Assembly (NCBI GenBank): GCA_973895155.1
Contig: OZ316893.1
Location: 15,530,645 to 15,594,644, forward strand
From: Marsupella aquatica
Lineage: Eukaryota; Plantae; Marchantiophyta
Length of the DNA: 64,000 bases
Reading direction: 5' to 3'
Part shown: piece by piece, positions 25,756 through 56,413 of the stretch
Numbering within the stretch: the stretch's first letter is position 1
Layout of the letters: each line of letters opens with the position of its first letter
The notes under the pieces: generated by a model
What the model was told of the DNA's origin: nothing
The model's database searches: none
What the model saw: only the letters and a program-made list of their open reading frames with translations
Made by a program: the position numbers and the translations under genes

Positions 25756-25764
25756 TGAGATTTT

Positions 25765-28863: not shown

Positions 28864-28866
28864 CTA

Positions 28867-36984: not shown

Positions 36985-37862
36985 TCATTCTTGGTATCCC
37001 ATGCGTATGTGGCCAAAGAGTCTAGTCCTTTTTGAGGAGAAAAAGGATATCCTTTTAGTACCCCTCAATCTTGCCATCCACCTCATCTGGAATGTGGGTC
37101 GCACCACAAATGGCATTGAAGTCGACCACGGGAGCGACAGGAGACAATGATGATCAAGAGAATGATATTGAGGAACAAGACGAGCGGGCGACGCAAAATC
37201 ATTTTTCGACTCTTCAAAAGTGTCGGAGAGCAATTGAAGATGGATTCAATTACTTTGACGACAAAGATCGGCTATGGTGGGGTCGTTTTTTTGACAAACA
37301 AAAAGTGATTCAGCACCACCTGAAACTTGCACAATGGAGTTTTGATTGGAGTTGGCCCAAGGTAAACGTACAGAGAGAACCTACGACCAATCCTACGGAA
37401 GTAGCAATGGAACCTATCTTGGTTGATAAAATAGTGGGTGTGAGGACAGTCATGTATTCCGGAAGTCGGAGAAAAGTCACGGAAATTGGAGACTTCAAGG
37501 ATCTAGAGGTGAATACTAAATTTGCAATGATATGTGTTGCTGCCCATTAGGATCCAAAGGGAAGACCATTCTGGATGGCAAAAGTGACTGAGATTCTCAC
37601 AAAAATTAATGACATCCACAAGCAAATTAAAATCACTTGGTATGCAATGGATTTGGAAGAGGAGTCTGCAATTGAAGGCAAATATTATTCGGAGAAAGAT
37701 GCTTCGTCTAACAAAGTACTGGAGGATGAGCTGTCCCTAGCAGAAACTGCAGTTTATGCGTATAACTTTGCGTTATTGGCAAATAGTACTCTCCCTGTAC
37801 AAACAAGACGAATCATTCAAAATGCAATGATGGACACTGTAGTCGTTGATAGTAGAAGCTAG
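36985..37862 (+). pseudogene. C-terminal remnant of a Sola-like transposase
   Basis: ORFs 37071-37550 and 37575-37862 are joined across a TAG. DPKGRPFWMAKV..IKITWY resembles the C-terminal domain of the 43426-47208 transposase (HFWLVRAL..VEWW). The catalytic part is absent. Confidence 0.5.
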
Positions 37863-38313
37863 TGTAAAGGTTTTAAGTTATAATGGTTATCGTTAAGCTA
37901 GTTATCAATCCCATGAGGATGATTGCAGTCGTGAACATCTGGGACTAAGTATGTTGTTCTCCGAAGCTATAATTATATCTTTTTTTGAATTGATTGTAAT
38001 GACTAACTAGCTAGAGCGTGGAATGCAAAGTCCGATAATATTATCGACAACTCCATTCCCCCAGCTAGAACATCGTGACAAATAAGGGAGTGGAATAGCT
38101 AGAGCGTGGAATGCAAAGTCCGATAAGTCCCCAGCTAGAACACCGTGACAAACAAGGGAGTAGAATGCAATGTCCGATAAATTTATCGGGTTCAAACGTA
38201 ATTGCGATAAATTTATCACACTCCATTCTCCGAATATTGAGAAGTGGGACTGACATAATCTAACATAACCTAAACTAACCTAACCTAACTATCATACAAC
38301 CAGATAACAATTC

Positions 38314-41300
38314 CTAATCCAGTAACATGTCATTGAGATCATCCTCATTAGGCGTTCTGGGAGGTTCTTCGGCTTCTTCTTCATTCTCGACCTCCTTCAC
38401 GACTTCAACAGTGAAAGTCAAAGTCCCCAATGTTCCCAATTGGCCTCCAATTGGTGGTTGAATCTCTAGACCTTCGCCGCCTTGCCCTTCAATTTGTGCT
38501 TCATCATATAAATTCCAGTTTGATTCTAGAGTCATAATCTGATGTCTCACGAAATCAATCTGCGCAGCACTTTTATCGATCGCACAACCCTGGCGAGAAT
38601 TGAGAAGAGCCGCAGCTAACATGGATCCGGTTCCGCGGCAAAGATCCATAACCCAGTCATTTTTCTCCGAGAAATGAGTAACGAACCAAGCACCCAAACC
38701 AACAGGCTTTTGGTACGGATTCACAACATAGCCCAACGGATCAACAGACTTTTTGGTTACACATGGAACCTTGATGATATTGATGCGAGACTCATCCGGT
38801 TGGAAATTGTACATGTTCATGTTCCGGATGCCTTCCTCGCTGTAGAATCCCATCGACCAGTTTTTGAAACCCCACGCCAATTGAGCACCGGCGGGACGCT
38901 CATGAATGTTGGTCTTCTCCCAAATTCCAGACTCAACCCCATAGTTGCACATAGTCTCGAGCGTAGACATGACCATATTTGTTTGCTGTAATGAATGGAT
39001 CACAACAAACCTCCACTGCTTAGCAGCTGTCATGTTCGAAAAACTTCTCACCATATCTACAACGTCCTTTTCCGTGAAGGACACTTCATCAAACTCCAAA
39101 CCAGGCGCATTAAAACCATACGGAATGTCGGCGACGGCAAGAGTGTAAGGTTTTGCCTCCACAAAAGAATCCAAAATTCGAACATCCCCAACATGGAGAT
39201 AGTAAGGGAAAGAATCTCTGTCAGCATTTTTCCATATTTGCTCCGCGGCTTCTCGTGCGTCCTCGCCTAGCGCCTGGAGCCGGTTGTACCGATCAATTGC
39301 AGCAAGCACAAAATTCTTGAACACATACGGGATGTCAGCGGAGGGAACAATAACCTCCCCCACCAAATTATATTGCACAAGCGGAACAACTTTATTTTTC
39401 CGCTTTGACCCAATCTTCAGTTGTAACAAAGGTCGCACAGAATTCCAATCAGAATGAAATCGCTTAACAAATACGAAAGCCATTAAAAATCTTGGGAATG
39501 AAACGAGTTATGCAAAAATGTACTGATGGAATGGCAAGGCCGATAAAAATCTCGCGATGATTTTTGAATGGAACGAGGAATGCAAAAATCTACTAATGGA
39601 ATGGCAAGGCCGATAAAAATCTCGGGGAGAGACGGGTGCTTACCGCTTCGCTCGACTTCTCTGCCCATGTTCCCAGGACGGAAACATCCGTCTCATTTGG
39701 AAACATTTCTCTGCACGTTGCCCAGTTGGGCTGCCCATATATCTACAAGAATAATTTCTTCACCTTGGAAAGTTTTTTCAGCTTTTCCCCTTCCTTGTGC
39801 ATTTTATCCAAGGTGATCACTTTCCCAATGACCCTATTCAAGAGCCGCTTAACATGCTCCTTAGTTGACTGTCCTTGAAGACCTCGAAAAGTATTTAAAT
39901 TGAGGTCACCTGCAAGTTTATTCATTTTAATCTCTTTCAGCGTTAAAGGTTTAACCTTTCCCTTTGCATTTGTTGTTGCCACGATCTTTTTGGGTTGTCC
40001 CAAGACAGTCCCCTTCTCCCACATCTGGAAAACTTTCTCCTGAAGATCCCAAATTTCACCCGTTCGAAAAGCAATCTGGAATGTTGGGTCATGTTTGGCC
40101 ATGCTGTCACGAACACCGGGAGTGTATTCCAGCATACATTCCTGACAACAAGCTTCGCAAACATCCTTGTTTGATCCTACATCCATTTCAACAAAGATAT
40201 TGTGGCACGCACGAACTCTGTCGATATGAGTCATGTTCTTCCTATACTCCTGGTCATAATTGTGCTGGAAGACCAACTTCCAGACCTCCGACTTGGTAAG
40301 TCCTGCGTATACCCAAGCTTCCAGCTCACCATAAATCTGCTTCCCATACATTTTATACAACTCGGCCTTTGCCCGAGCACCATGATTTCCTCCAATAATT
40401 CTATACTTCCATACTCTGGACTTTAGAATGTCCCAATCCTCGATTGTGGGACAATCCTCCGGATCCACACACAGCACAAACGGTGCGCTGAAGTTAGTGG
40501 GGTTTTTCCTTAGAAGAATCTTGATATTCTCCACATGCAATTTGTCCACTGGTCTGATCAAAGGTGACTTCTCTCCAGCTTCATCAAAAATTATATTGTC
40601 GACATGCAAGAGGACAGTTGTCCTTTGAACCCTTTGCTGCATCAGCAGACTGAGCTCCGCTTTGATGGCGTCAGTCTCATACATCGAAAGAACAGTCTCC
40701 TCCTCTTCATCAATCTAGAAAACGCCGTTTGAAATTAGATTACGAAAGAAACAGCAAGATTTTTATCGGAATCCTCTTTCGTCAATAGAAAATCAAAGTT
40801 TGGTAGCACTTACCGATCAAACCTCGGCTTGTATATCTGAACAAGGCAAACGCTCGTCAATCACCGGAGGCTCCATGTCGATCGGGGCTTCCACTCCTTC
40901 CGGGGCTGTGGATAAACTCCAGCCTGTTCTCTTTCTCTTAACGCTGACTCCAGAACCAGATGGCCCCGATCCCTCAGATCCTCTACTCTCGCTTATATTT
41001 ATGTAAGGCGCTTTCGAAAGGCCTATACCTGCACCGGCTGCATGACCTCGACGATTGCCGCTGCCCCTTCTCCCGCCCTCGGAGGGACCAGTAACATCTT
41101 CCCTGATGTTCCCTCTCCCTCTCCCTTTCCCCCTGCCACTTCCCTTCCCCTAACCACTTTTGGGCTCGTCCAAAGCCGTACCTCCAGCGCTTTTTGCCGA
41201 TGAAGCTCCACTCCCGTTAGAACCAGGCCTCTTAATAACTATTTTCCGGATGGGTCTGAATTATTCACCTATGAGCCTCTTGTACTCTGCATTCACCCTT

Positions 41301-41788
41301 GGTAGCATGATGAGATCACAATCTTGGACAAACTGGCACACCCAAGCTGGGCCCATAAGATTCATTACTTTTGCTGACCTAACTTCCGTGACAAGCGCGT
41401 CTTCAGGGTAACTCTCAAGGGATTTCTGAAGAAAGTTCTCCATGGTGACAATGACAGAGGTGAATCCCTTGCCTCCACACATTGTCAAGAAACTCAGACC
41501 CTCTTTCAACACTTTTGCCTCTCCCTGGCTAATCAAGTACTCACAGATCGCCACACCAACGACGGGGCCAAATGAGAGAGTAACCTTTGCAGATTTTTGC
41601 ATCTGGACCCAAAGGATAGGAGACTCACTGTCTGCCATATCCTTGGATTGTAACTTGGCATCGCGGAAGTACCACGGTTTCTTGATGAACTTGACCTCTT
41701 CACAAATGTCTTTGCTTGTCCAAATTGCGTTCGTGAGGCTTGTCATGAGACTTTCCTCGGCAGATCCACTCTTCCCACTAGGACCCAT
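38314..41788 (-). pseudogene. ParB-like + beta-class DNA amino-methyltransferase fusion gene, copy 1 (spliced, premature stops upstream; MTase exon open)
   Basis: Exon from ATG 41788. ParB/Srx-like exon 39743-40715 (IRPVDKLHVENI..YRIIGGNHGARA). MTase ORF 38314-39483 with LAVADIPYGF (DPPY-like motif IV), VNPYQKP and WVMDLCRGTGS (SAM-binding motif I), in beta-class order. GT-AG introns near 40813-40716 and 39643-39490. Confidence 0.8.
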
Positions 41789-42127
41789 GATGACAAAGTC
41801 TGCAAATCTGAATGCAAGGAGCAATAAATTTATCGCTTTGACAAACCAAAAAAACCAAAAACCGGCATACAAACATCGATACAATGAACTCAGAAAGTGC
41901 TCATTCACGTACAAGCATTAGGTCATTCCACGAGCGATACCAACTCTGATAAAATTATCGCAAACAAATATGAGCACGATATAAATTGACGGCTGAGATT
42001 ACATTATCGTACGTGTCAACATCTGAAAATGAGACCAACACCGATAAAATTATCGCAAAAGTGGTCCAAACAAAAAGTGAGCCTTCTTTAAATTGACAAC
42101 CGAGTGTACATGTGATAATGTGCCTAA

Positions 42128-42806
42128 TCAATCATCCCACCCAAGATCAAACCGCGCTACAGCGAAGCGAGAGATTAGCTTCTTGGGCCATTGGGGTATA
42201 TGAGTGATCCTATGATCATAGGCCCACAGCCAATGAAAATCTGTGGCACCGGTCTCAGGATTAACTACAGCTACTGAATAGCGGCGTGACGGAACATCAC
42301 ATGCAACAGGCATTTGTGCAACACTGACACATCTCACCATTGTCAAGGACATTTGTCCATAAACAAGATACATAAGTTAACCTAAATAACGGACAAAGAG
42401 GTTGAGGGGGGAGTTGACGAACCTGTACGAATATAACTTCCCACCAGTGTCAATCAAAAACTCGGTAGCAAGAGGATTGTCCAGCTGGTCAATCACATCC
42501 TGAATCTCATCGAATGCTCTACGTCTGTTGTGGGCATAGAATTCTGGTTCATAGGCAGGATTGCCCTTCACAACATGATAGCAGTGCAGTATAAAACGTT
42601 TTACTGCACCGATTTTAAGAAAAAGCAGGATAATACTTCTAGAAAATGCAGCATATCTATCCCACTGGATATAAATTTCTCCCCCTACCTGGTCTACGTA
42701 GAAGTGATATGCGTTATTATAAAATGGGTTTGCTACTAGCTTGCAAATCTTTAAAATTAGTGATTCATCCAGCTTCCTTAGCTGGTCCATCAGGGCGCCA
42801 TTCCCC
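42128..42806 (-). pseudogene. 3' part of a small cargo gene (weakly F-box-like) split by the inner element; 5' part at 55898-55944
   Basis: Removing 42811-55897 and one CATT restores MLERRIFVPFVDPPEWGNGALMDQLRKLDESLILKIC in frame. ORFs 42377-42790 and 42128-42373 are in frame across one TAA. Confidence 0.7.
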
Positions 42807-42849
42807 CATTATCAGCCTATTCATTAAAAGTGTATTATTATTTGATTTA

Positions 42850-43175
42850 TGTACATTTGGGCAGTGAAAAGTGTACTTTTGGGCTTGGAAAAGTGTACAT
42901 TTGGCCAATGAAAAGTGTACATTTGGGGATAGAAAAGTTTACAATTGGCCTAAAGAGTGTACATTTGGGCAATGAAAAGTGTAAATTTGAACATCAAAAT
43001 AGATACATTTGGCTTTAAAAGTGTACATTTGAGTACATTTGGCCTAGAAAGTGTACATTTGAGTGCAAAATGCATACATTTGGCTTAACAAGTGTACATT
43101 TAAGTGCATTTGGTCTAGAAAGTGTAACTTTTAGTGCAATAAAGTGTACATTTGGCCTAAAAAGTGTACATTTGC
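42850..43175. repeat. Subterminal AAAGTGTACATTTGG array (also 55765-55850)
   Basis: More than ten imperfect copies next to the left TIR and four next to the right TIR, in the same orientation. Confidence 0.85.
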
Positions 43176-43425
43176 CTACCAACTCTTATTATAATCATTT
43201 AAAAGAAAGGAATGAATAGAAAAACATTTTTAATTATGTAGAAAAAGCAAACATTCATATTTATAATGATCAAAAGTTTAGAAAATGAGGAGATAGTATC
43301 ACATTAAAACTATTAGAATAGTAAATAACTAGTACATAAATTACTATGTTTGAATGAGTGACTATCTTAGTTACATAAAAACTAGTAACTATCTATTTAA
43401 TTATTATAGCTTCTAACAACTAAGT

Positions 43426-46400
43426 CTACTTGTCCATCCTTTGAAGATAATTTTGGACAGTTTGTAGAACATTTCGAGGGATCTTCAAACCTCTGCCTGC
43501 CATGTTTTCTTCTTTCATTCCAGATTTAAAACCATACATTGCAGAATTTGCATACTGCCAATGTTGAGTATTCTCACCAAACCCTGGATCTCGTTCCCAT
43601 GTCTTAGTGGACATGAAACAATTTAGATACCGCGCACTCTCAGTCACATCAAGTTTACTAGAGTGTTTAGGCCTCCACCATTCAACTGGGAACATTGGAG
43701 CGTACTGTCGAGGCAGAGAAGGGTTTGTTGAAGATGTAGTTGGGACTTCATGCTTTGGGTCCACCAAACCCAAAGCTCTCACCAACCAGAAATGACCTCC
43801 ACCATTTTTATTCTCCCAGTCATCCTCGGGTCGAAGAAATACAAAGTTTCCTTCACAAATATCTTGTAAAGGAATCCATCGTCCTTGTTCTCTCTCAGCT
43901 CGAGATCCAACAAATGGTGCTGCCTGATCTTCCATCTCTTCCAAGACCTCATTTTGAAGAGCCGTCATCTCTGCATTCTCCTCATCTTCACTTGGAGGAC
44001 CACTTTGTTCCGGTTGGTTGACCTTGTAACCAGTGCCGTGGTTAGTCTTAGGCCAAAATCTGTTTTCCAAGGGAAATTGAGTACTTCCCTCCCCTTCTAG
44101 TGCGAGCCCATTTGTCAACAACTCCACAATTCTCTCCCAATATTTCACAAGAGGAAATCTTTCCTTATATGCTATAGATGTCTCATCAGTGCAACTCCTT
44201 CTCAAAAAATCAAGGTACTTGTTAAGAAATGGGATAATCTCTTCAGATTTTTTGTGTATCTCTCCAATGGATTTAGCTAAGGGCTCTCCACTTGGTAAAA
44301 GAAGAGAATTTGTTGTCAGATCTGTTGCCCAAATGCACCTTCCACCAAGTGGAGCCCAAGCTTGCTTTACATGGGACTTATACTGAAATATTGGTACATT
44401 ATCTCTCATAGAGAAAAGAAATGATACAGGTTTTGAGTGACCTTGAATATCTTTCACCTTGAAAGTTTGAAGATATTCTTTGTAAGATGCAACTTCTTGT
44501 ATCAATCTGGGAACTGGATGAATGCTCTCGCATTCCCATACCTCTGCCATAAGAGCAAGGAGGGTTGCAACTTCTTTGTGCTGAACTTGATATGATACCT
44601 TTGAAAAGAGTGCATCAACATCTTCATGCGTATGACCAACCATTAGAAAAGACATTTGAACAGTTTCAAATACTCCTCTACTCACAAGCTCGCTACAAAA
44701 TGCCATGACAGTCTGGTTTTTGTTGTCCTTTGCTGAATTATCCATCTGCAATGTTAGGTGCCTTGGCAAGGGCTTGAACGATGGACTGCCTTGCTCTCCT
44801 TGCATGTCTTCTCCATCATCCTCATCTTGCTGGTTTGGGACGGTCTCAGTCCGACTCTCAGCTCCATCTTCAGAACCAATATACCTATTCACCGGTATAT
44901 TCTTTGGTTCCAAATAACCCGTCAAAAATGCTTCAAAGTCAAGTAGGGCTTGAAAGAAAGGTCTGTGAGGTTCCCAATGAAGGCCATCCAACATGTCACC
45001 TGTCTTGTCTCCATTGTACTCTTCAAGGTCTCGAAGACACTTAGCCAAGGATGTCACCGTGAAATCGACATCTCCTGGCCAAAGGCCAGTGACACTAAAG
45101 TGTGCATAAACTCCTGGATCCCTCCCGTGGGTCAACATCCCTGTGAGAGCAATAGGTAGCGGCATTCCATGACCCGAAAGAGATTTAGGAGTACTAACCA
45201 TTTTTGGAATCCATGTCTTTGCTTGATCCATCTTGTCGTGAATAATGCAAAGATATTCTCCTGGGTGTTGTTTGGCCATCACTCGATGAGCGTAGTAAAC
45301 ATATCTACGTGACATTTGCTCACGAAGATGTTGCGCTCGTTTTTCTTCAATTTCAGCACGTTCTTTTTTCCTTCTTTCTCGCATCAAACTGTCTTTGTAT
45401 TCACAACAAAGAGTACACTTGGCAAATGCACCATCTTTATGAAAACTGAAGTTTGCAAATGAGTTACTCCAGATCTTGTAGAGAGTATTCTCTGTGACAG
45501 GAGGAAGCCCTTCTTCCTTCATCTTTGTTCTCACATCTTCCAGAATCTCTAGCTTTTTGTAACACCCCGGAAGACGGTACTCAATAGAGTCTGTCCCATG
45601 TGCCCCTCCATAAGGCATATGAGGCATGGGCTCTGCATTTCGAGTCAAAAAAGCCTCCAACAGAGCTCGTGCATGCAAGGTATTTGCCCTTGTTTTCATC
45701 AAGCCCGTATTGCCATGGAACCCAATTTTGCAACCCTCCACATATCTCCTTTTGTAATCATAATATTTGGTGTGGCTAAAACCGTGGATAATTGCAAATG
45801 CATGTCTGCATACGACCATACCCTTAAGAACATGGTGTCCCTTATCACGAACATCATCCTCTCTATAGTGAAAGAGGTTGAAAATGTGTGACGTTTTTGA
45901 CTCGCTTGACATCCCATGAAATTCCATCCTAATATCTTCGATGTTTTCCCTTGGCATAATGAGACAACATTTTTGCTTGCAACAATTTTCTCTTTTCACG
46001 TCATCAATTGACGCCTCTGTTGTTTTTGAAATTGCCTTGGTTTCCAACAACCTCCTCTTCTTTTCATTTGGATCTACTTGATTCCTCTTGTTAAAATTGT
46101 AGGGCCTTGAACGCAGTACTCCTCTATCACTTACATCCGCATTGAGTTCATCCCTATCCATTGAGTCCATCCTTTCAGAACCTTCCACCAAAATATCTGA
46201 CAAAAATTTTCCATTTGCAACTAGTTTTGTTGAATCAATCCGCCATCGAATCAAACTCACTACTCCCTTGTGGATGTTGGGAAAGTATTGTGCTGCCACG
46301 ACATCTTTCACAGCAATCCCAACATGGTCATCACCAAGAATTTCATCATCAACTGCCGCCATCACTTGAGGGACAGTGATCGTTCCCGTGGCAACCATTT

Positions 46401-47208
46401 TGGTTCGATCCAAACCAGTGTAGAGTTCAACCAACTCTGACATCCAGTTTGCCCGATGAAAATAGTCACACTTAGTGTCTGTGGTGTTTGCCGAACAAGA
46501 CTGTGAAACAAAATCCGCCTTGTCCTTCTGCTTCTTAGAGGAAGATTTGTTGCTCCCATCGATATCAACATTCCATACTTTATTGTGGACGTCAGCCACA
46601 TCCCATAGAACCCAGGAGCCCTTTGCCTCTTCAATTGTTGCAGCTCCACCATGTGCGTAAGGTAAAGTCTTACTACCATGAATCACATCTGTGATTTTTA
46701 CACTAACCCGAGACTCACCGAGTAATATGTTATGACATCTCTCCATTGGATCAGTCTTGAAAACAACTCCAAAGGCCACACAATGGCCAGAGATAAACAT
46801 TTCAACCTCATCACCTGGCCTTAGGGTGGTCGAAGCATCCTCCTGTACATTTGCAGAATTATGGATGTTGTTATCTTTTCGAGTCGAACAACTACCAATA
46901 CTGATGCGTTTTTGAGTAATCTTATCCGCAGATCGATATGCACATGACATATCCCAAATGACACATGAGTCAATGGCATCATGAAGATTTTCCGCCCTAG
47001 GCATTGGAAAAGGGAGCTTCCTGGTCTCACCAAAGGCCTTCTCAATGAGAACCCCAATTCGATTATCTCCCAGCACAATATTTTGAACACTCTCTTGCGG
47101 ATCTGTCTTTTGAACTGTCCCATTTCCAACGTCGTAACCATCCATTGTCAAGGTCACATCATCGCCCCTAGAAAACCTTTGAGACATCCTTTTCCTATTA
47201 TCCTGCAC
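43426..47208 (-). CDS. Sola1-type DDD transposase (~1250 aa)
   Basis: FAKCTLC..H, IIHDKMDQ, LQMDNSAKDNKN and FLMVGHTHEDVDALFS. Three repeated N-terminal domains. Uninterrupted ORF inside TIRs with a 4-bp TSD. Confidence 0.85.
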   Translation of the reverse strand: MQDNRKRMSQRFSRGDDVTLTMDGYDVGNGTVQKTDPQESVQNIVLGDNRIGVLIEKAFGETRKLPFPMPRAENLHDAIDSCVIWDMSCAYRSADKITQKRISIGSCSTRKDNNIHNSANVQEDASTTLRPGDEVEMFISGHCVAFGVVFKTDPMERCHNILLGESRVSVKITDVIHGSKTLPYAHGGAATIEEAKGSWVLWDVADVHNKVWNVDIDGSNKSSSKKQKDKADFVSQSCSANTTDTKCDYFHRANWMSELVELYTGLDRTKMVATGTITVPQVMAAVDDEILGDDHVGIAVKDVVAAQYFPNIHKGVVSLIRWRIDSTKLVANGKFLSDILVEGSERMDSMDRDELNADVSDRGVLRSRPYNFNKRNQVDPNEKKRRLLETKAISKTTEASIDDVKRENCCKQKCCLIMPRENIEDIRMEFHGMSSESKTSHIFNLFHYREDDVRDKGHHVLKGMVVCRHAFAIIHGFSHTKYYDYKRRYVEGCKIGFHGNTGLMKTRANTLHARALLEAFLTRNAEPMPHMPYGGAHGTDSIEYRLPGCYKKLEILEDVRTKMKEEGLPPVTENTLYKIWSNSFANFSFHKDGAFAKCTLCCEYKDSLMRERRKKERAEIEEKRAQHLREQMSRRYVYYAHRVMAKQHPGEYLCIIHDKMDQAKTWIPKMVSTPKSLSGHGMPLPIALTGMLTHGRDPGVYAHFSVTGLWPGDVDFTVTSLAKCLRDLEEYNGDKTGDMLDGLHWEPHRPFFQALLDFEAFLTGYLEPKNIPVNRYIGSEDGAESRTETVPNQQDEDDGEDMQGEQGSPSFKPLPRHLTLQMDNSAKDNKNQTVMAFCSELVSRGVFETVQMSFLMVGHTHEDVDALFSKVSYQVQHKEVATLLALMAEVWECESIHPVPRLIQEVASYKEYLQTFKVKDIQGHSKPVSFLFSMRDNVPIFQYKSHVKQAWAPLGGRCIWATDLTTNSLLLPSGEPLAKSIGEIHKKSEEIIPFLNKYLDFLRRSCTDETSIAYKERFPLVKYWERIVELLTNGLALEGEGSTQFPLENRFWPKTNHGTGYKVNQPEQSGPPSEDEENAEMTALQNEVLEEMEDQAAPFVGSRAEREQGRWIPLQDICEGNFVFLRPEDDWENKNGGGHFWLVRALGLVDPKHEVPTTSSTNPSLPRQYAPMFPVEWWRPKHSSKLDVTESARYLNCFMSTKTWERDPGFGENTQHWQYANSAMYGFKSGMKEENMAGRGLKIPRNVLQTVQNYLQRMDK

Positions 47209-47249
47209 ACTGAAAAAAATGGATTACAACCAAAGTCATGCAAATTTTG

Positions 47250-48045
47250 ATTCAGACTGCGATCCTCAAAGTCTGGATTTGGACTACGATCCTTCAATTC
47301 CGGATTTGGACCGGGACCATCCAAGTCCGGATTTGGACTACGATCCTCTGATTCTGGATTTGGACTAGGACCATCCGAGTCCAGATTTTGACCGGGACCA
47401 TCCAAGTCCGGATTTGGACTGCAATCCTCTGAGTCTAGATTTGGACTACGATCCTCCGATTATGGATTTGGATTGGGACCATCCGAGTCCGGATTTGGAC
47501 TGGAATCCTCTGAGTCTAGATTTGGAGTACGATCCTCCGATTCTGGATTTGGACTGGGACCAACCCAGTCCAAAGTTGGACTAGGACCATCCCAATCCAA
47601 ACTTGGACTCGGACCATCCCAATCCAAACTAGGACTTGGACCATCCAAGTCCAAACTTGGACTCGGACCATCCCAATCCAAACTTGGACTCGGACCATCC
47701 TAATCCAAACTTGGACTCGGACCATCCCAATCCAAACTAGGACTTGGACCATCCAAGTCCAAACTTGGACTCGGACCATCCCAATCCAAACTTGGACTTG
47801 AACCATCCTAATCCAAACTTGGACTCGGACCATCCCAATCCAAACTAGGACTTGGACCATCCAAGTCCAAACTTGGACTCGGACCATCCCAATCCAAACT
47901 AGGACTTGGACCATCCAAGTTTAAACTTGGACTCGGACCATCCCAATCCAAAGTTGGACTCGGATGATCCCAATGCAAAGTTGGACTCGGATGATCCTAG
48001 TCCACATCTGAATCCAAACTTGGACTAGGACCATCCTAGACCAAC
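47250..48045. repeat. 21-bp minisatellite (TTGGACTCGGACCATCCCAATCCAAAC-type), probably in the 5' intron of the transposase
   Basis: More than 30 tandem units. The same unit occurs at 49270-49610. Confidence 0.92.
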
Positions 48046-49106
48046 CCATAATGTAACGGGAGATAAACTTCAAACATTTTAAGCTAAGAAAATTCCAAAT
48101 TTAGGAAGACTCCGTATTTTACGGATCTCCCTATATGGTGTAGCCTAAAGTTTGCGTGGTCTTAAGGTAGACCCTAATGTCTACATACAGTTTCATGAAA
48201 TAATGAAACCTAGCCTTATATTTGAATGCGTTAACCTTATACTCACCTTAGTATTAAGATCTGGTAGAATATGAATATCACATCCAAGGGGGATACATTG
48301 TTGTCTGTAGATTGGTAAAAACTTTCCCAGAACCCTGAAATACAAGCTATATGCCACTAAATCTTGGGAGTAAAAAACAAACTGAACCCTAAACCACACA
48401 TGTCTGTAAAAGATAAACTGAGAGGACCCCAAAAGTCAAGAAGCTGGCTAAGCTGACCCATTGAAGGTAAGTGGCTCAATACATAACACTTTAAGAGAAA
48501 CTCCGGATTACATGGAGCTTAGATTTGGGAAACTAGAACAAGAATGAGCTCCGAAGTGGGCGTCTCCCGAAATATACCCTTTGCTCGAGTCGGCTCAAAC
48601 GGAAATCGCGTGAAGATAAGGGTTGAGTACCCCTTCACCTTAGCTTGCGGCACACCTTATCTTCACGAGCCTAATTGCGCGGGGACTACCGTGCAAGGCT
48701 GTTAGGTAGGCAGGACATCAAGGAAGGAGGCCCGTATGCAGGGTGCGGGCAACGGGCCGTACGCAGGAGCAAGCCGTACGCACTATCAGGCCGTACGTAG
48801 GAGAAGGAGGCAACCGGCCGTACGCAGGCCGGGGTGAGGCAGGAGGGGGTAAAGGGACGGAGAGGTCCAGCCAGGACCTCATTCTCATTCTCACTCTTTC
48901 GCTCCTCACTCTGCTCACGCTCTCCACTCTCCGCCTCCGCTCTCTGCTCTTTGCCTCCACTCGCTCGCTCTCCTCGCTCTTTGCTCTCCGCTCTCTCTCC
49001 GCCTCCCCGCCTCTGCCTGCTTCCGCCTCCACCTCCATTCTTTTTCATTGCCCTAAATCGGACGCCTGCTAAGAAGCCACGTGTCACTCTGCCACGTGTC
49101 AGAAAG

Positions 49107-52100
49107 ATGGAAGCGAATCGCGTCCTTGTGAAGTCCTCCGTGGAAGCAACAGAGGAGTTTGACCTCTCCTCTATGAGCGACAGTGTAGAACTGGCACTTG
49201 AAGACTCCAAACAATTTCAATCAAGAATCCCTAGTAAGTATCCATCACCTATCCTCCCTAAGTCTTAGAGGACTGGGACCATCCGAGTCCAAAGTTGGAC
49301 TCGGATGATCCCAATCCAAAGTTGGACTCGGACCATCCCAATCCGAACTTGGACTCAGATGATCCTAATCCAAACATGGACTCGGATGATCCCAATCCAA
49401 AGTTGGACTCGGATGATCCCAATCCAAAGTTGGACTCGGACCATCCCAATCCGAACTTGGACTCAGATGATCCTAATTCAAACGTGGACTCGGATGATCC
49501 CAATCCAAACTTGGACTCGGATGATCCTAATCCATCCAGGAGATTGAATCTCGATTGTAGGAGCAAGTCTAAAACCATCTCAAGTTGGACTAGGACCATC
49601 CTAATCCAACAAGATTTATTCAAATGTTTTAAACTTAATAAGTCTAACATGGATGATGTTTTTATGATGCAGGGAGCGATCTTGTTGGTTTCAAACCCGC
49701 GATTGCACCGACCGACTGCCGGGACGGATTCTTACTAGATGAGAGATCCCCAGGCTTCCGATGGGGGCTTGAGTTCTCAAGAACCCCGCTTAATAATGAA
49801 GTGCCATCAAGCACGATTGAACCTGTTTTGACCTTAAAGTGCAGAGCAAATGATAGCCTGACTTTGGTTTGCGGACCTGTGGTCTCTGTTGGCATTGGAG
49901 GGAGAGGGATGAATTCGGTCATTCTGGAGATGCACGATAGGTCATGCTGGGTTAAAGTTAACCTTATGTCAAAGGCATACTCCTCAGAATTCTATGTCGA
50001 ATGGCACGCAAGTGGTGAATTGAGCGTTTTGTCAATGGGATTTTTTCCAAAGACATATGACACAAAGAAGTTGGTCATCGGGGTAACTGGTATGCTTCCA
50101 GTCGACATTATGTATGGGTTTCAATATTTGAAACTCAACATGATGAAGCACCAAGGCAATTTCTCTTTTGCAACTACTTGGACGTTAAGCAATTTACTTG
50201 AGAAAGTTGGATTGTTATCGTTGGAGTCAGAGGAGCCTGGTGTTTTAATTGATAAGGATGTTGCATTTGATCCCAACTTTGATTTAGTCAAAGCAAAGCA
50301 ATGGATAGAATCTTTGTCAAAGACGAGAAACCTTCCAACGGTGAATACAAACCCTGTGCCCGAGAAGGCGCCAGAGAAAGCTCCAGAACCTACAACAGAG
50401 ACCGCGGGAACTACAGCAGCAACCTCTCAAAGAGCAGTGGGAAAACAAAAACAAAGCCAAAGGAAACCTCCGGTTGAAAAGAAACTTCCAGTTGAGAAGC
50501 TGGTTGAGAAGCCGAGTACGAGAAGCCGAGTTCAGAAGCCAGTTGAGAAGCCGAGTACGAGAAGCCAAGTTGAGAAGCCAGTTGAGAAGAAACATTCGGT
50601 TGAGAAGCCAAGTGCAAGTGAAAAGAGGCCAAGACAAAAGAAGAAACAGAAAATTGACAGTGCCATCATGGATGACACTACAGAAAACCTGACAGTGCAT
50701 TCACAAGATATGGACGAGCAGTTGGACGCTCCTGAGGAGAAGAAGGTCTTAGAAGGTAATGAGGTACTACAACAAATGGAGCAATATTATACGTTTGGGA
50801 TCAATTCGATATTTTCTATTCCCGTAGAGAGTATTTTCCCTGCGTCGGCAAGACTCTGTTACAGAATGTTGAATGCAGACCATGTAAAGGAGGTGGCCAA
50901 TTCCATGATAAGAAATCCGGGGCATGAACCACACATAGCAGACTTGATTCCTTACACTACAAAACATAGAAACCTAATGCAATATGACAACACGGAATCA
51001 GATAGGAGGGACTTTGTAGCAGCCGTGAAAAAGGGGGAGGTTCAATTCCTTGCCATTAGCGGTCAACATTCGGCCAGAGCAGCCAGATGGATTCGAGAAT
51101 GGGCAAACAAGGATGCCAAGCTAACAGCATTGGCAAAAAAGCTGGAATTTCGAAAGTCAAGAATATTATCTCATCGAACACCATCATCAATATTAGTTGA
51201 GCATTCAATGCGATCTAATGCTATCAATAGCACGATGGTGTTTCAGTCATGCTTCAAAGATACAGTCGTTCATGCTAGGCGGCAATTTGTGGAATGTGGA
51301 AAACCTAGCCGGCCAAAACATGGGGACAACAAAACAAACGCTCAAGACAATCAAAAATTTCAGGTATGAAGTGTTACTGCTTGATTGGTACAATACCGTA
51401 GACTCTCCATGTGTGATTACAATTGAGATGGTAGTCTTTGACCACAAAGCTTCAAGTTTGCTTTGGATTGAGATGGTCCGAGTCCAAATGGATACATTCA
51501 CATTCAGTAGAATATTTCCACTGATATCGTCTAGTTTTGTGTTGGACTGGGATGGTCCCAGTCCAAATGGATTCATGCACATTCAATAGACTATTTCCAC
51601 TGATATTGTCTAGTTTTGTGTTGGACTGGGATGGTCCCAGTCCAAATGGATTCATGCACATTCAGTAGAATATTTCTCCACTGATACCGTCTAGTTTTGT
51701 TTTGGATTGGGATGGTCCTAGTCCAAACTAAATCATGCACATTCAATATAATATTTCCACTGATATTGTCTAGTTCTGTGTTGGACTGGGATGGTCTCAG
51801 TCCGCACCTGAGTGCTTTCAAACAATTGAGTTATGGAGAACTAACAGACTTTCCTTTGCAATTGTAGGATTGGTTGGCTCTTGCAAGAATGACCATGGGA
51901 AGGAAAGATTGTCGTAATGTCTACTGGTTACTGTTTGCCGACAATGCTCTTTTTGATTTATGGAGTTTGGTATGCCAATTGTGGTTGGATGGGAAACTTC
52001 CCGATGGAGCTGGTGTAGAAGGAAATGAGAAGTCTGAAAAAGCAATTACTGTTGCCATGTTTCGTTGTTTTGATGGTGAGTTGATCTCACAACGAGACAT

Positions 52101-54240
52101 CACAAGAATACTGACGCGGGTGAAGTCAGGAAAGGTATTGCTCAAGAAAGATGCCTCTAATAAATCAGACATGCCATCTATAGAGGAGTTGGCCAAAGAT
52201 GTGAAGATCGTGCGGAAACTCAAGTCCCTTATTGAAGACTACTATTGCACCAAGGATGCGGTGAATTTCCCGACAAATACTAATTGGGGGAAAGTAGTTG
52301 AGGTTCTTCCTACGCTAGCAATTGATTCAGAGTTCAGCAGGTGTCGAAGAGCCGCTGGCGAGGTCTATCTTGCCAACCTTTTAAAGCCAAATCATACGCG
52401 GGAGAGCGCAATCTTGCCGACGGCATTGGTATTCCGCCTAGATGATATATACTGCCAGAGATTTGGCGGAGGATCACGTTCTCGGACCCTACCATGGGTT
52501 ACATTTTTTAGCGACAATCTCATGAAGACCATTGATCCAGAGTCATTGCAAGAAGCTCCTCCGACCTGCCCTCTTGCCATTGTTGATTTTAGCCGGCTTC
52601 CACAAAAACAGTGGACTAAAGCAGAGATTCTTGTTCTCTTTGAATACATTGTGGAGCTTCCACAAAATCCCACGATTGTGGTGATGATAACAGTTCATCC
52701 TGGACAACTTGCACTGAATGTCCATGGTGCCCTTCGTAAATTGGGACAAGAGAAAGCTTTGACCATTCACATTGAGTATGGGAGTTATTCACGAGATGAT
52801 CAACCGCACCCTCATGACTCATGTTGGGGTGGAGGGATTGAAGAAGTTATCTTTGCAGGGATTTCTCGAGATGAAGACGTCAATTGGAATGAAGTTTTCA
52901 AGCCCAACTATCCAAAGCCAAAATTCTTGTATACTTCAAAGGATGTTGATTATGAAGTATGCAAGATCGACAAGGGAAAGGGGAAAGCTAAGGAATCAGA
53001 TGAGGGGACACAAAACGACGACCTAAAAGTGGTTTTGGACCCGGAAGAGGCCGTCAAGATTATGAATATGGCCCCTCGATTTGAGACAGTTGGTAGTCGC
53101 GGAGGATGGGTTAATCCTCATGCCAAACCCACGCGGATGATCCGAAGGATTATTGAATCCTTATCAGAACCGGGAGATTTGGTTCTAGATTTTTTCTCCG
53201 GTGGCCAAGTCATGAAGACATCATTTTTTTGCGATAGGGAATGCTTTGTTTATTGTGACTCTCAGTCCGAGAGGCATTTTGTGGAAGCTTTTGCTTCCTA
53301 CCTTTGCGAGAGAGTTCCCTCACTTAAAGCCCATTGTGAATCACTTGCTGAAAATTCTCGACAATGGGCTACCACTATTGCGGCTGTAGCTGTCGCTGTT
53401 GAATCCGACGGTTCTGAGTCTGAAGATGTTGCTGACAAAGTGGCTAAAGGCGTAGAGGCATCAGAGGAGGCATATGTCAAAAATTTGGATGACCGTGTTG
53501 GTCAAGGTGAGCCTTACGATGTAGATGATGATATTGGACTTGCACCAAACCGTTCATCTGGTTTAGATGACATCCCTTCGGGGCCCCATGAAGTTCAAGT
53601 TGATGATAACTTGGACAAGGATGATCCCAATCCAACAACGCCGGGAGGACAGATGGAGCAACTGGAAGGAGCAAGGGTTGATATGTTTGATCATCTTTCT
53701 TCAACCAATCTGATCAACGAAGGCGCAACGAGGCTTGGAGATTCAAATGAAGCTGAAACTAACGAATTGACTCGTGGGGAAGCCGGCGGATTGCCTGACA
53801 TTCCCATCAATCCAGGAGGAAATGCATCAACGGCTGCTGACAACCAGGCAGGTGCTTCAACTTGTCCTGACACACTCTTTTCAGCTTCTGATGACAAATT
53901 GGTGTTCGTTCGTTCACACTCGAGGAGTCCTGTTGTCCTTCCGTTCTCAAAAAAGAAAGGGAATAGAGTTGGATCAACTGGATGGAGGTCATTGGAACGC
54001 GACGCACGATGTTACGTGTGGAAAAGTGGGCCAAATCGAGGCCAAGAAATATCATTGGAAGCTGCTCCTTCAATTCTCAATAAGGAGGAGTATAAGAGGG
54101 GAGAATTGGGGTTCATAACTCCTGTTTGGACTTCTCCTTATTGGGTAGAACAAAGTACTTCAGATGTCAATTTTGAAATCCAACAGGAGCTTGGTGCTGA
54201 CATGATTATTGATGAATACGGATCTCTTATTTCGGAATGA
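49107..54240 (+). CDS. ParB-like + beta-class DNA methyltransferase-like fusion gene, copy 2 (exons 49107-49233, 49673-51363, 51868-54240; ~1396 aa)
   Basis: GT-AG introns keep the frame (phase 1, then phase 0). ParB/Srx-like YRMLNADHVKEVANSM..FLAISGQHSARA. MTase-like WVNPHAKP..SEPGDLVLDFFSGG, with motif IV degenerate (LAIVDFSR). No internal stops. Confidence 0.82.
49270..49610. repeat. 21-bp minisatellite in intron 1 of ParB-MTase copy 2
   Basis: TTGGACTCGGATGATCCCAATCCAAAG-type units, about 13 copies. Confidence 0.9.
51460..51810. repeat. ~80-bp tandem repeat (4 copies) in intron 2, each with the palindrome TTGGACTGGGA-TGG-TCCCAGTCCAA
   Basis: CCACTGATA anchors at 51518, 51597, 51678 and 51757. 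Confidence 0.88.
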
Positions 54241-54382
54241 AATTCAGCCTTTGACTTTCTATTTATTCATATCAATCTAAAATACTTCTCGGTCTCACAG
54301 AATGGGCTCACCAATTAAAGTCTCCATATCTGTCTACACATTGTGAGGCTTCTAAAAATGGTATGTAGGTTAATTTTCGTTT

Positions 54383-55516
54383 TTGTCAGCCATTGTGTTG
54401 TATTTTTGGACTGAGACAATCCTAATCCAAAGTTCACTTTTGGTCTTTTCTCTGAGAATGGTGTTTGGTGCACTTGCAGAATCGAGACCTGGTCCCGTCA
54501 AGCGGAAGTTGCTGATTTTGGACCTTAATAAAATACTTTGGGATTCTATTGAATTCCAAAGCAAGGGCACATCCAGGAATATTGTCACCTCAAGTGGAGT
54601 GCATTGGGATAGAAAAAATGGTATTAGTCGCATGTATACAGAACGACCAGGGCTCCATGAGTTTCTAAAGTTGGTTTTTGACAGATTTGACGTTGCAATT
54701 TGGACTTGTGCTGGGGTAGAACGAACAGTGAAAATGCTGAACATGATGTTCACTGTTGAGGAGCGGTTGAAACTTAAGTTTGTATTCACACAGGTGGAAG
54801 CCTTTGACACAGGCATTCAAAGGCGTGACATTACAAACGGAAAGGCAAATGTGCTACTGAAGGATTTTCAGGTGGTATGGAATGCATTTGGAAATCTGTA
54901 TGATGAAACCAACACCCTCCTTGTGGATGACTCCCCCCTTAAGGCATTTGCCAACCCAGACATGACCGGATTATTTCCAGTGCCCTACACGCATGCCAAT
55001 CGTGGAGATAATTTTCTTCTAGCAATTCTTTGGCCATGTCTTGAGAAACTATCACATGCAAGTGACATTCGATGCTATCTTCTTCTCAACTCTCCAAAGT
55101 GGTCTCTTTTGCACATGAAGAGAGACAAGGCAAAAAATGAGATTACTTATGATCAACTTAGCAAGAGATTTGCAGCAAAAATTTGGAAGTCACAGTTTAC
55201 ACATAGTGTGTTGGACCTCAACAGTAATGAGATCCCTTGGAATGTAAAGCACCGTATATGTAGTTTACGTCCTGAGGTGGAACTTGACAATGCACTTGTC
55301 AACTCACTTGCTAAATCATTTTTAGGAAAGGACTATTCAGGTCCATATAGAGAAAATCCCAGACACTTTTTGCGGGAGATTATAGCCATTAGGAACAACA
55401 CCACCAGATTTCAACTCCCTGAAAATAAAGTGAGTTGCAACCGTGACAATAGGGTAGATAGGAAAGGAGACAGGGGCACATGCTCAAATACACATTGTAG
55501 GGAGCACTTGGTTTAG
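54383..55516 (+). CDS. FCP1/SCP (NIF-family) HAD phosphatase-like protein
   Basis: RKLLILDLNKILW, RPGLHEFL, FDVAIWT, KDFQVVW and NTLLVDDSPLKAFANP. The true start is probably a short upstream exon (~54358) spliced to ~54480. Confidence 0.85.
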   Translation: MSAIVLYFWTETILIQSSLLVFSLRMVFGALAESRPGPVKRKLLILDLNKILWDSIEFQSKGTSRNIVTSSGVHWDRKNGISRMYTERPGLHEFLKLVFDRFDVAIWTCAGVERTVKMLNMMFTVEERLKLKFVFTQVEAFDTGIQRRDITNGKANVLLKDFQVVWNAFGNLYDETNTLLVDDSPLKAFANPDMTGLFPVPYTHANRGDNFLLAILWPCLEKLSHASDIRCYLLLNSPKWSLLHMKRDKAKNEITYDQLSKRFAAKIWKSQFTHSVLDLNSNEIPWNVKHRICSLRPEVELDNALVNSLAKSFLGKDYSGPYRENPRHFLREIIAIRNNTTRFQLPENKVSCNRDNRVDRKGDRGTCSNTHCREHLV

Positions 55517-56413
55517 ATATTTAATTGACTTGTGTTAAGCCCCTTGGATAGTACTAGAAACATGTTCGTATTCAATGTAAATTTGCAGATAATTGTATAA
55601 AGATATTTTATAATCTATTTGGAATGATGTTATTTTGTTCACAGAATATCTGGTCCTTAAATGGGGATGAAATAACTTTATAAGTTTTTATCCTCCATTT
55701 CTATGTGAGTTATTAAATAATATAATATGTATTATTTATTAATATAATATTAATGTGATTTGGCCTATAAAGTGTACATTTAGAGACACAAAAGTGTACA
55801 TTTGGGTGTCTTGAAGTGTACATTTGGGGACATGAAAGTGTACATTTCAGACTCATTTGTGAACAAAAGAAAATACACTTTTAATGAATAGGTTGATCAT
55901 TCCGGAGGATCCACAAAGGGTACAAAAATGCGTCGCTCGAGCATGGCCTGATCAGCGAATAGAAATCAGGAATATATTTTGGAGAACATACTCATTACAA
56001 TTCTACAAGTTTCATTCAACTTTATAGTACCTTGTATAACGGGCCGTGAAGCCAATGCACTTGTCAGCTAATTGTCCGTAGAGGCGCAAAAAATCTACAC
56101 TCTGGACCACACAACCCGAAGTCAGGCGAGGCAGGGTCATTTACATTCAAAGTGTTTTTTTACAAGCTCTTCTCGAGCAAACCTTAGAGCACCCAAAACA
56201 ATTGACTACTAAATCGACGAGAGGAATGAGGAGTGCGATAAATTTATCGGATGTTCGCAGCAATGCCTCATCCACTCAGACTTGTCCATGCCATGCAAGA
56301 ATTGTCCGCTTCCCGCTTTCTCCAAGATTCACCCAAACTCTAAGAAACGCATCTAATCGGTCATACAAGAAGCACCCAAGCATATCTATGGGAGGGAGGA
56401 AATGAGTTTCCTC

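What the first reader, a model, noticed from the sequence alone, without database searches (positions are those of the whole stretch)
38314..54240. Two related Sola-like DNA transposons each encode a spliced ParB-like + bacterial-type DNA amino-methyltransferase fusion
Seen: two genes (41788-38314 minus in the outer element; 49107-54240 plus in the inner element) share one architecture. Each has an N-terminal domain (VTLSFGPVVGVAI vs LTLVCGPVVSVGI), a low-complexity linker, a ParB/Srx-like domain (IIGGNH vs ISGQH), a helical region, a methyltransferase domain (VNPYQKP..VMDLCRGTGS vs VNPHAKP..VLDFFSGG) and an acidic tail. Both have GT-AG introns and lie in TIR elements, and they are strongly diverged from each other. 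Established: motif IV preceding HPxxKP and motif I is the beta-class N6A/N4C order. ParB-methylase fusions occur in phages and prokaryotic mobile elements. Bacterial-derived amino-MTases have been co-opted in bdelloid rotifers and Marchantia. Inference: this is an old, conserved second gene of a transposon lineage rather than a one-off capture. It could give the element a self-marking (6mA/4mC) or anti-silencing system, and might be a source of domesticated plant amino-MTases. Novelty needs a literature check.
Basis: partly seen in the sequence, partly recalled or inferred. Interest (0 to 1): 0.92.

Follow-up and report, generated by a model that had tools for sequence, protein, structure and literature searches.

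The report
Plant transposons carrying ParB–methyltransferase genes
Two nested plant DNA transposons each carry a spliced gene that fuses a ParB-fold domain to a bacterial-type DNA methyltransferase fold, and each is studded with its own palindromic DNA word, so the protein likely binds and marks its own element; this extends a gene type already reported on algal transposons to land plants.

Summary
Both genes are real. Gene A (41788-38314, minus) has three exons and three in-frame stops. Its domains fold as ParB (Foldseek E 1.6e-4) and beta-class amino-methyltransferase (E 4e-13), and it keeps the catalytic D-I-P-Y motif. Gene B (49107-54240) is an open 1,396-aa frame. Its methyltransferase-like domain has lost that motif (D-F-S-R) but shows purifying selection. 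B lies in a complete 13.1-kb Sola1-type element (TIRs, 4-bp TSD, empty site seen in 3 of 4 runs). A's element shows only one TIR and a transposase-like tail, so its superfamily is unproven. Relatives occur in Chara, Riccia, Diphasiastrum, Adiantum, Ginkgo and Cymbomonas. A-type elements share non-coding CGA-N8-TCG palindromes whose core differs by family. The concept is published: Ectocarpus Sola1-1_Ec32 carries a ParB plus N4/N6-methyltransferase gene with the same self-marking proposal, and red-algal Plavaka elements pair a ParB-like gene with inverted-repeat arrays. This scan also found the kind on other DNA. Added here: land-plant copies with the catalytic motif intact, a candidate binding site, and a coexisting pseudo-enzyme lineage. 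A link to Marchantia DN4MT1 is unsupported. Activity is untested.

The parts
40823..41788 (-). Gene A exon 1: N-terminal domain and low-complexity linker; two in-frame stops
   Evidence: homologous first exons in L001, L003, L005
39644..40714 (-). Gene A exon 2: ParB/Srx-fold domain (about 40639-40238, IIGGNH) and helical region; one in-frame stop near the 3' end
   Evidence: AlphaFold model pLDDT 75; Foldseek ParB, Noc, PadC E 1.6e-4 to 8e-4; VIA-align PadC Z 7.8, rmsd 3.1, 100 aligned
38314..39414 (-). Gene A exon 3: beta-class amino-methyltransferase domain (D-I-P-Y at about 39129-39118, NPYQKP, DLCRGTGS) and acidic tail
   Evidence: Pfam PF01555; Foldseek CcrM E 4.3e-13, M.PvuII, rotifer N4CMT; D, Y, G, F of motif IV invariant in 27 of 27 rows
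37067..37862 (+). 3' remnant of a conserved ORF convergent with gene A, inferred to be the tail of the outer element's transposase; one stop; 5' part not found in the window
   Evidence: 50% identity over 181 aa to an ORF convergent with the same gene in L002, and a 31-aa match in L003; no Pfam match at cut-off
58358..58377 (-). Right TIR of the outer element (terminus AACAC); no partner TIR found on its left in the window
38033..57931 (.). Outer-family 14-bp palindrome CGATAAATTTATCG: 14 copies at 38033-38218, 41822-42055, 56236 and 57483-57931, plus two looser copies in gene A intron 2 (39541, 39611); none in gene A exons
   Evidence: 18 matches in the window against 0.10 expected
42811..55897 (.). 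Inner transposon, 13,087 bp, with TIRs and 4-bp TSD CATT (42807-42810 and 55898-55901), inserted into a short ORF of the outer element
   Evidence: empty-site joint 42806 to 55898 in runs X1, X2, X5, i.e. 3 of 4 laid
43426..47187 (-). Inner transposase, open frame of 1,253 aa, DUF7869; Sola1-type (family link recalled)
   Evidence: PF25273 E 7.5e-43
49107..49233 (+). Gene B exon 1
49673..51363 (+). Gene B exon 2: N-terminal region, linker, ParB-like region (ISGQH)
   Evidence: ParB plus helical profile 10.3 bits against 4.5 for the best of 500 shuffles; not folded
51868..54240 (+). Gene B exon 3: helical region, methyltransferase-like domain with degenerate motif IV (D-F-S-R, 52585-52596) and motif I (DFFSGG, 53188-53205), acidic tail
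   Evidence: Pfam PF01555 E 2.4e-6; Atlas N6_N4_Mtase 0.93; 25 of 40 listed variants synonymous
47227..51803 (.). Inner-family palindrome (about 25 bp, arms TTGGACTnGGA and TCCnAGTCCAA) in tandem arrays: 27-bp units at 47255-48036 and in gene B intron 1, 79-bp units in intron 2
   Evidence: 48 matches against 0 expected: 25 between the transposase and gene B, 15 in intron 1, 6 in intron 2, 2 (one site) in exon 3
54374..55516 (+). Third ORF of the inner element, NIF/FCP1 phosphatase-like, with DLN in place of the DxD motif
   Evidence: PF03031 E 2.2e-15; motif read from the sequence
3572..5135 (.). Non-autonomous relative of the outer element: same TIR at both ends, 4-bp TSD CTTC, four copies of the same palindrome

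Best explanation
These are accessory genes of DNA transposons, and their ParB-fold plus methyltransferase-fold protein likely binds the family-specific palindromes in the element's own introns and flanks and likely keeps the element from being silenced. Shown: domain folds (A), gene structure, location inside TIR-bounded DNA, family-specific palindromes outside exons, conservation across green plants. Inferred steps: (1) a dimer binds CGA-N8-TCG (A type) or the 25-bp inverted repeat (B type) through the helical region behind the ParB domain; (2) the ParB pocket, which keeps a conserved Arg, G-x-H and Asn, gates loading or spreading with a nucleotide; (3) intact A-type copies methylate nearby DNA, more likely at adenine N6 given D-x-P-Y; (4) the mark or the bound protein hinders host CG methylation. 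B-type proteins have lost the catalytic motif and would act by binding alone. The window's copy of A is dead; the window's copy of B looks intact.
For: Folds. Motif IV reads D-x-P-Y in 93 of 126 aligned segments and motif I is mostly kept (close relatives are over-represented); D, Y, G, F are invariant in 27 of 27 close homologues. The ParB-pocket Arg is present in 24 of 24 rows with that column filled, and G-x-H in 30 of 31. CGA-N8-TCG counts: outer element 12, L001 12, L002 8, L003 22, L005 4, L004 0, against shuffle means of 0.1-1.3; 0 in the inner element and 0 in 31.8 kb of other window DNA. N8 is the top spacing in 5 of 5 regions. Only 5 of 46 sites in the four loci that have sites fall in coding DNA, which is 53-77% of each locus. 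The inner bases differ by family. VANC21 binds motifs in introns and intergenic tandem repeats in the same layout (PMC5735166, passages). CpG observed/expected is 0.72 in the outer element with palindromes masked, against 0.31 in the CACTA element and 0.43 in the Sola2-like element. The B domain shows 25 of 40 synonymous variants against 22-29% expected (p about 1e-5 or lower).
Against: No binding, methylation or expression data. The CpG signal is mixed: the outer element does not differ from two other window regions (0.62, p 0.16; 0.65, p 0.40) and barely from the LTR element (0.57, p 0.03), and element age confounds it. The palindrome pattern was read off the same loci it was then counted in, and coding intervals in the loci were set by eye. 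The transposase could be the binder. The Arg that follows G-x-x in canonical ParB CTPases (recalled) is not conserved here. B has no catalytic motif. Streptophytes are described as lacking abundant genomic 6mA, and retrotransposon DAM domains expressed in E. coli gave no 6mA (bioRxiv 10.64898/2026.05.21.726589).
Confidence: 0.45

Rival explanations
1. The protein is a non-catalytic transposition cofactor: it binds the palindromes and bridges or organises the element for the transposase, and the methyltransferase fold serves as a DNA-binding or dimerising module in both types.
For: B has lost motif IV yet is under purifying selection inside a complete element with an empty-site joint. Palindromes also cluster near the right end of the outer element and in the non-autonomous relative. 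33 of 126 motif-IV segments depart from D-x-P-Y.
Against: Close A-type homologues keep both the catalytic and the SAM-binding residues, which a pure scaffold would not need. Many sites lie in introns kilobases from the ends.
Confidence: 0.3
2. The palindromes are transposase sites, and the fusion protein works elsewhere: it methylates the element's RNA or excised DNA, or lays a self-limiting repressive mark like rotifer 4mC on transposons.
For: The beta-class fold is shared with METTL3 RNA enzymes (weaker hits, E about 5e-7). Rotifer N4CMT marks transposons for silencing, and that paper notes the domain has repeatedly switched between 6mA and 4mC (PMC8885841, passages).
Against: The best structural hits are DNA enzymes (CcrM E 4e-13). 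A ParB-like gene beside inverted-repeat arrays recurs in Plavaka elements, which have a different transposase. CpG is less, not more, depleted in the outer element than in two neighbouring DNA transposons.
Confidence: 0.18
3. The genes are passengers captured once and carried without benefit, or mostly host genes unlinked to transposons.
For: The window's A copy is broken. The genomic context of the named plant homologues could not be read. Linkage to the tail ORF was seen in only 2 of 5 loci.
Against: Strong conservation of catalytic columns, synonymous excess in B, many variant contigs across the whole region in 4 of 4 runs, and the same pairing in a brown-algal Sola1 element. Two of the three loci without the tail end inside the gene, and L001 ends about 360 bp past the stop.
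Confidence: 0.07

Closest known systems
ParB-like + N4C/N6A methyltransferase accessory protein of Ectocarpus Sola1-1_Ec32 (PMC12477816; passages and supplement rows read)
   Same: Sola1 element with 4-bp TSD; second gene on the strand opposite the transposase; about 1,100-aa fusion of the same two domains; self-binding and self-modification already proposed. Its termini (AACCG) resemble the outer element's (AACAC).
   Different: Land-plant host (inferred); two deeply diverged lineages side by side, one with and one without the catalytic motif; defined family-specific palindromes. The passages I read give no binding site or catalytic-motif analysis. Sequence homology to the Ectocarpus protein was not tested.
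Plavaka accessory genes PAG2 (PF01555 + SET) and PAG3 (ParB-like + 2OG-oxygenase) of Bostrychia (bioRxiv 10.1101/2025.02.11.637652; passages; supplements closed)
   Same: Transposon-borne ParB-like and N6/N4-methylase domains; arrays of inverted repeats proposed as the ParB-like protein's sites.
   Different: EnSpm/CACTA lineage; ParB and methylase domains lie in separate genes with other partners.
VANC21 / VANDAL21 of Arabidopsis (PMC5735166; passages)
   Same: Accessory gene; short family-specific motifs in introns and intergenic tandem repeats that diverge between families. This is what the system likely works like.
   Different: Mutator element; VANC acts through loss of 5mC and has no ParB or methyltransferase domain as far as I recall (not tested).
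Phage ParB-terminase-locus methyltransferases and eukaryotic N6A-MTase clades (Iyer et al., PMC4738411; section 8 and passages)
   Same: ParB and amino-methyltransferase associated; D-x-P-Y motif as in phage enzymes (DLPY, DPPY, DIPY in the phage proteins).
   Different: Only 22-25% identity to the listed phage hits, best listed E 4e-6. The eukaryotic set is one side of a 99-supported branch against 8 phage enzymes. Spliced gene with an added N-terminal domain and helical region.
Marchantia MpDN4MT1a/b and rotifer N4CMT (bioRxiv 10.1101/2021.02.12.428880 and PMC8885841; passages)
   Same: Beta-class permuted amino-methyltransferase fold in a eukaryote (N4CMT structure hit E 5.8e-10).
   Different: Host genes; DN4MT1 has TSPPY and no extra domains, N4CMT has a chromodomain; no ParB domain is mentioned in the passages read.
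DAM-carrying DIRS and LTR retrotransposons (bioRxiv 10.64898/2026.05.21.726589; parts 1-3 of 5 read plus term search)
   Same: Transposon-borne prokaryote-like adenine methyltransferase linked to 6mA and higher expression.
   Different: Retrotransposons; N-P-P motif DAM family; DAM-LTRs absent from streptophytes; 'ParB' and 'Sola' occur 0 times in the text.

Membership tests
Beta-class (permuted) DNA amino-methyltransferase, gene A | Fold and motif order IV, TRD, I | tested here: met
   Foldseek top hits CcrM, M.BceJIV, M.PvuII, N4CMT, E 4e-13 to 6e-10; Atlas 0.96; order read from the sequence
Beta-class (permuted) DNA amino-methyltransferase, gene A | Catalytic motif IV (D/S/N-P-P-Y) and SAM-binding motif I | tested here: met
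   D-I-P-Y and DLCRGTGS; D and Y invariant in 27 of 27. The second position is I, as in some phage enzymes
Beta-class (permuted) DNA amino-methyltransferase, gene B | Domain homology | tested here: met
   Pfam above gathering score; Atlas 0.93, 10 of 10 best hits one family or clan; 28.9 bits against 3.9 for the best of 500 shuffles
Beta-class (permuted) DNA amino-methyltransferase, gene B | Catalytic motif IV and G-x-G motif I | tested here: not met
   D-F-S-R and FFSGG (motif IV position assigned by eye); the 40 best-supported variants show only synonymous changes there (127 further variants not shown)
DNA amino-methyltransferase (either gene) | SAM-dependent 6mA or 4mC formation on DNA | not testable with these tools
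   needs an assay or modification-aware long reads
ParB/Srx superfamily, gene A | ParB N-terminal fold | tested here: met
   8 Foldseek matches at E<=1e-3, all ParB, Noc or PadC; PadC Z 7.8 is the top VIA-align row but in the middling range; no Pfam ParBc hit
ParB/Srx superfamily, gene B | ParB N-terminal fold | tested here: inconclusive
   Profile match 10.3 bits against 4.5 for the best shuffle; hhalign probability 3%; not folded
ParB CTPase clamps | GxxRxxA arginine patch and CTP hydrolysis | tested here: inconclusive
   Box I Arg, G-x-H and a later Asn are conserved but the following Arg is not; the canonical motif is recalled; hydrolysis is untestable here
Sola1 DNA transposon, inner element | Sola1-type DDD transposase | tested here: met
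   DUF7869 E 7.5e-43 and an open 1,253-aa frame; the DUF7869-Sola1 link and the triad are recalled, no Repbase comparison was possible
Sola1 DNA transposon, inner element | TIRs and 4-bp TSD | tested here: met
   TSD CATT has the right length but not the AWWT preference given in PMC3845634 (passages)
Sola1 DNA transposon, outer element | Sola1-type transposase | tested here: inconclusive
   Only a 3' remnant is present; no Pfam hit at cut-off and no match to the inner transposase
Sola1 DNA transposon, outer element | TIRs and 4-bp TSD | tested here: inconclusive
   One TIR in the window; a relative with the same TIR at both ends has a 4-bp TSD
ParB + methyltransferase transposon accessory proteins (Ectocarpus type) | Both domains in one chain, opposite strand to the transposase, inside the element | tested here: met
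   Gene B: (ParB part inconclusive as above). Gene A: both domains met, transposase identity inferred
ParB + methyltransferase transposon accessory proteins (Ectocarpus type) | Sequence homology to the Ectocarpus protein | not testable with these tools
   sequence not retrieved; none of 20 looked-up hits was named as a brown alga
VANC-type anti-silencing system | Family-specific motifs in non-coding regions and tandem repeats | tested here: met
VANC-type anti-silencing system | Protein binds the motifs and causes loss of 5mC | not testable with these tools
   only an indirect, mixed CpG-depletion signal
MpDN4MT1 / N4CMT 4mC enzymes | S-P-P-Y motif IV | tested here: not met
   0 of 126 aligned segments read SPPY; neither gene has it

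The most novel reading that the evidence does not exclude
Land plants and their algal relatives harbour an ancient, still catalytically competent transposon-encoded system in which a ParB-type clamp loads at family-specific CGA-N8-TCG sites and spreads a bacterial-type 6mA (or 4mC) mark along its own element to block host CG methylation: a parS/ParB-guided self-marking system in eukaryotic chromatin, with a sister lineage that kept the binding and dropped the chemistry.
Probability: 0.25. Interest if true: 0.85.

Novelty: new member of a known kind. Interest (0 to 1): 0.5.

Why it matters
The self-marking idea for ParB-methyltransferase accessory genes is in print but, in the passages I read, untested and without a defined site. 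This locus supplies what a test needs: a land-plant lineage with intact catalytic residues, a candidate 14-bp site with fixed geometry and family-specific core, a naturally motif-less sister lineage as control, and a complete element. A positive result would be a transposon-written, local 6mA or 4mC mark in plants, where these marks are disputed, and a new route of anti-silencing.

Tried and rejected
No whole genome is held for this window, so genome-wide linkage was not tested. Search for longer fused homologues of A's methyltransferase exon: 0 of 4,622 candidates (weak, and later overturned). Viral contigs: no relatives of the A profile, B's domain or the inner transposase. PDB by sequence: nothing at E<=1e-3. 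Phage collection: A's ParB region best E 0.9; methyltransferase homologue only 22-25% identity in listed rows. No RNA holder listed. Shared N-terminal domain of A and B: at chance level, rejected as evidence. Outer tail against inner transposase: no match; against the Sola2-like tail E 0.017 in a two-sequence search, not trusted. The tree had gene A in the wrong frame and was discarded. In the redone quick tree (55 rows; 21 close homologues were filtered out by rule, 2 duplicates dropped, and fragments not spanning the domain excluded) gene B is a long branch of unsure place, so sisterhood of A and B is not shown; the eukaryotic rows were chosen by A's own profile. The second fold-library search for the methyltransferase model was not run. 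The sigma-70 scan is not meaningful for a eukaryote. No complex prediction was sent. Literature: 10 searches. None listed a paper describing this fusion in land-plant transposons; only PMC12477816 held all of 'ParB-like, transposon, accessory, methyltransferase, algae'. Iyer et al. 2011 (cited there for green algae) and Bao et al. 2009 were not read, the journal version of the Bostrychia paper is not held, and bioRxiv supplements are closed; any of these, or Repbase, may already list plant cases.

Full report
Observation. GT-AG splicing gives gene A as three minus-strand exons (41788-40823, 40714-39644, 39414-38314; 1,045 codons with stops at 176, 213 and 646) and gene B as three plus-strand exons (49107-49233, 49673-51363, 51868-54240; 1,396 aa, open). 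The splice sites are inferred; no RNA run was listed. At the first stop of A, every covering contig in runs X1, X2 and X3 reads another base, and close homologues read through the third, so the damage belongs to this copy. The host is a plant, likely a non-seed land plant; this is inferred from the neighbouring transposons and named homologues.

Domains of A. A model of exon 2 from 18 sequences (pLDDT 75) matches ParB, Noc and PadC: 8 matches at E<=1e-3, best 1.6e-4. PadC is the top VIA-align row (Z 7.8, rmsd 3.1, 100 aligned), a middling score on its own. A model of exon 3 from 27 sequences (pLDDT 70) matches CcrM (E 4.3e-13), M.BceJIV, M.PvuII and rotifer N4CMT. Motif IV reads D-I-P-Y, with D, Y, G and F invariant in 27 of 27 rows.

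Domains of B. Pfam N6_N4_Mtase passes its cut-off, the Atlas gives 0.93 to the same family, and a broad family profile scores 28.9 bits against 3.9 for the best of 500 shuffles. The ParB and helical region scores 10.3 against 4.5, which is suggestive only (hhalign probability 3%). The claimed N-terminal similarity is at chance level, 5.6 against 5.1. Motif IV reads D-F-S-R (position assigned by eye) and motif I FFSGG. Among the 40 best-supported variants in related contigs (127 more not shown), 25 are synonymous against 22-29% expected, and none alters these motifs. B therefore looks like a conserved pseudo-enzyme. A and B share only 24% identity over 98 residues, and B's place in the tree is unresolved.

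Elements. The inner element spans 42811-55897, with TIRs, a CATT duplication and an empty-site joint in 3 of 4 laid runs. It holds a DUF7869 transposase (E 7.5e-43; Sola1 type by recall), gene B head-to-head with it, and a NIF-like ORF. The outer element has a right TIR at 58377 and no left TIR in the window. A 1.56-kb relative at 3572-5135 has the same TIR at both ends and a 4-bp duplication. Convergent with gene A is a 3' ORF remnant conserved in the same position in L002 and L003, 2 of 5 loci; two others end inside the gene and L001 ends about 360 bp past the stop. I infer it is the transposase tail, but it matches neither Pfam nor the inner transposase. 'Two Sola-like elements' is thus shown for one and plausible for the other.

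Family. A profile search found 1,174 clusters at E<=1e-3 and 158 at E<=1e-10. Of 149 proteins scanned, 25 also match the ParB plus helical profile at E<1e-3; many of the rest are short fragments. Of 20 looked up, 9 carry organism names: Chara braunii (3), Adiantum nelumboides (2), Ginkgo, Diphasiastrum, Riccia sorocarpa and Cymbomonas. Motif IV is D-x-P-Y in 93 of 126 aligned segments and never SPPY (close relatives weigh heavily). Listed phage hits are distant (22-25% identity) and fall on one side of a 99-supported branch (8 rows). No donor can be named.

Palindromes. The outer family has a 14-bp palindrome: 18 matches in the window against 0.10 expected, 14 in the outer element and 4 in its small relative, none in gene A exons; two looser copies lie in intron 2. 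L001, L002 and L005 have GCGAGACnnGTCTCGC-like sites, and L003 has CCGATnnnnnnATCGG-like sites. All reduce to CGA-N8-TCG: 12, 12, 8, 22 and 4 copies (0 in the short L004) against shuffle means near 1, with none in the inner element or in 31.8 kb of other window DNA, and 5 of 46 locus sites in coding sequence. Other spacings give 0-5. The pattern was derived from these loci, so the counts describe rather than test it; the shared spacing across three different cores is the informative part. The inner element has its own 25-bp inverted repeat in tandem arrays, 46 of 48 matches outside gene B's exons and the transposase frame.

Mechanism. I put 0.45 on self-binding with anti-silencing: a dimer binds the family palindrome, the ParB pocket likely gates loading, A-type copies likely write 6mA nearby, and B-type copies act by binding alone. 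The layout mirrors VANC21. CpG depletion is milder in the outer element (0.72) than in the CACTA (0.31) and Sola2-like (0.43) neighbours but no different from two other regions (0.62, 0.65), so this is weak support. Rivals are a non-catalytic transposition cofactor (0.3), transposase-bound sites with another target for the enzyme (0.18), and a passenger gene (0.07).

What is known. [quoted passage not shown] The Bostrychia preprint proposes that a ParB-like accessory protein binds adjacent inverted-repeat arrays. The scan has 7 similar notes from other genomes. One says plant versions lack the catalytic motif, which holds for B but not for A's lineage. MpDN4MT1 (TSPPY, no extra domains) does not resemble this family in motif or architecture. 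My 10 literature searches listed no paper on land-plant cases, but Iyer 2011, Bao 2009, Repbase and closed supplements were not seen.

Verdict. Real, well-supported structure; a new land-plant member of a published kind. The added value is the intact catalytic lineage, the candidate binding site and the motif-less sister lineage, which together make the published hypothesis testable. Interest 0.5.

Noticed in passing
window 32377-35885 minus (element roughly 31400-37066): Spliced transposase with a DFSENY motif, Sola2-like by recall, with its own AAGGACT/AGTCCTT palindromic subterminal repeats. One end (GAG terminus at 37066) abuts the outer element's tail ORF; the other end was not located.
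   Followed up: partly
window 54374-55516 plus: The inner element carries a third ORF, NIF/FCP1 phosphatase-like (E 2.2e-15), with DLN where active enzymes have DxD (recalled).
   Followed up: partly
window 42377-42806 and 55902-about 55945, minus: A roughly 158-codon ORF of the outer element is split by the inner insertion; its longer part has no Pfam match.
   Followed up: partly
window 56414-56833 and 57019-57351, minus: Further small ORFs in the outer element; the first has a faint F-box-like hit (E 0.067).
   Followed up: no
window 9598-13618 and 14189-14830, minus: CACTA/EnSpm element (Transposase_21, DUF4218, DUF4216) with an adjacent NSD-like PHD-finger ORF, a possible chromatin-reader cargo gene; strongly CpG-depleted (0.31).
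   Followed up: no
window 3572-5135: Non-autonomous relative of the outer element shows no CpG depletion (1.10 with palindromes masked), the highest in the window.
   Followed up: partly
window 53611-53635: One copy of the inner-family palindrome sits in frame in gene B's acidic tail.
   Followed up: no
window 18500-22000: Array of about 580-bp repeats, each with a 52-bp imperfect palindrome.
   Followed up: no
window 23773-30400: Long identical direct repeats 5,094 bp apart around a retrotransposon gag ORF: a young LTR element.
   Followed up: no
protein P0082 (Ginkgo Gb_37443): A seed-plant homologue with ParB-like and methyltransferase domains in one chain; motif IV reads DIPH.
   Followed up: partly
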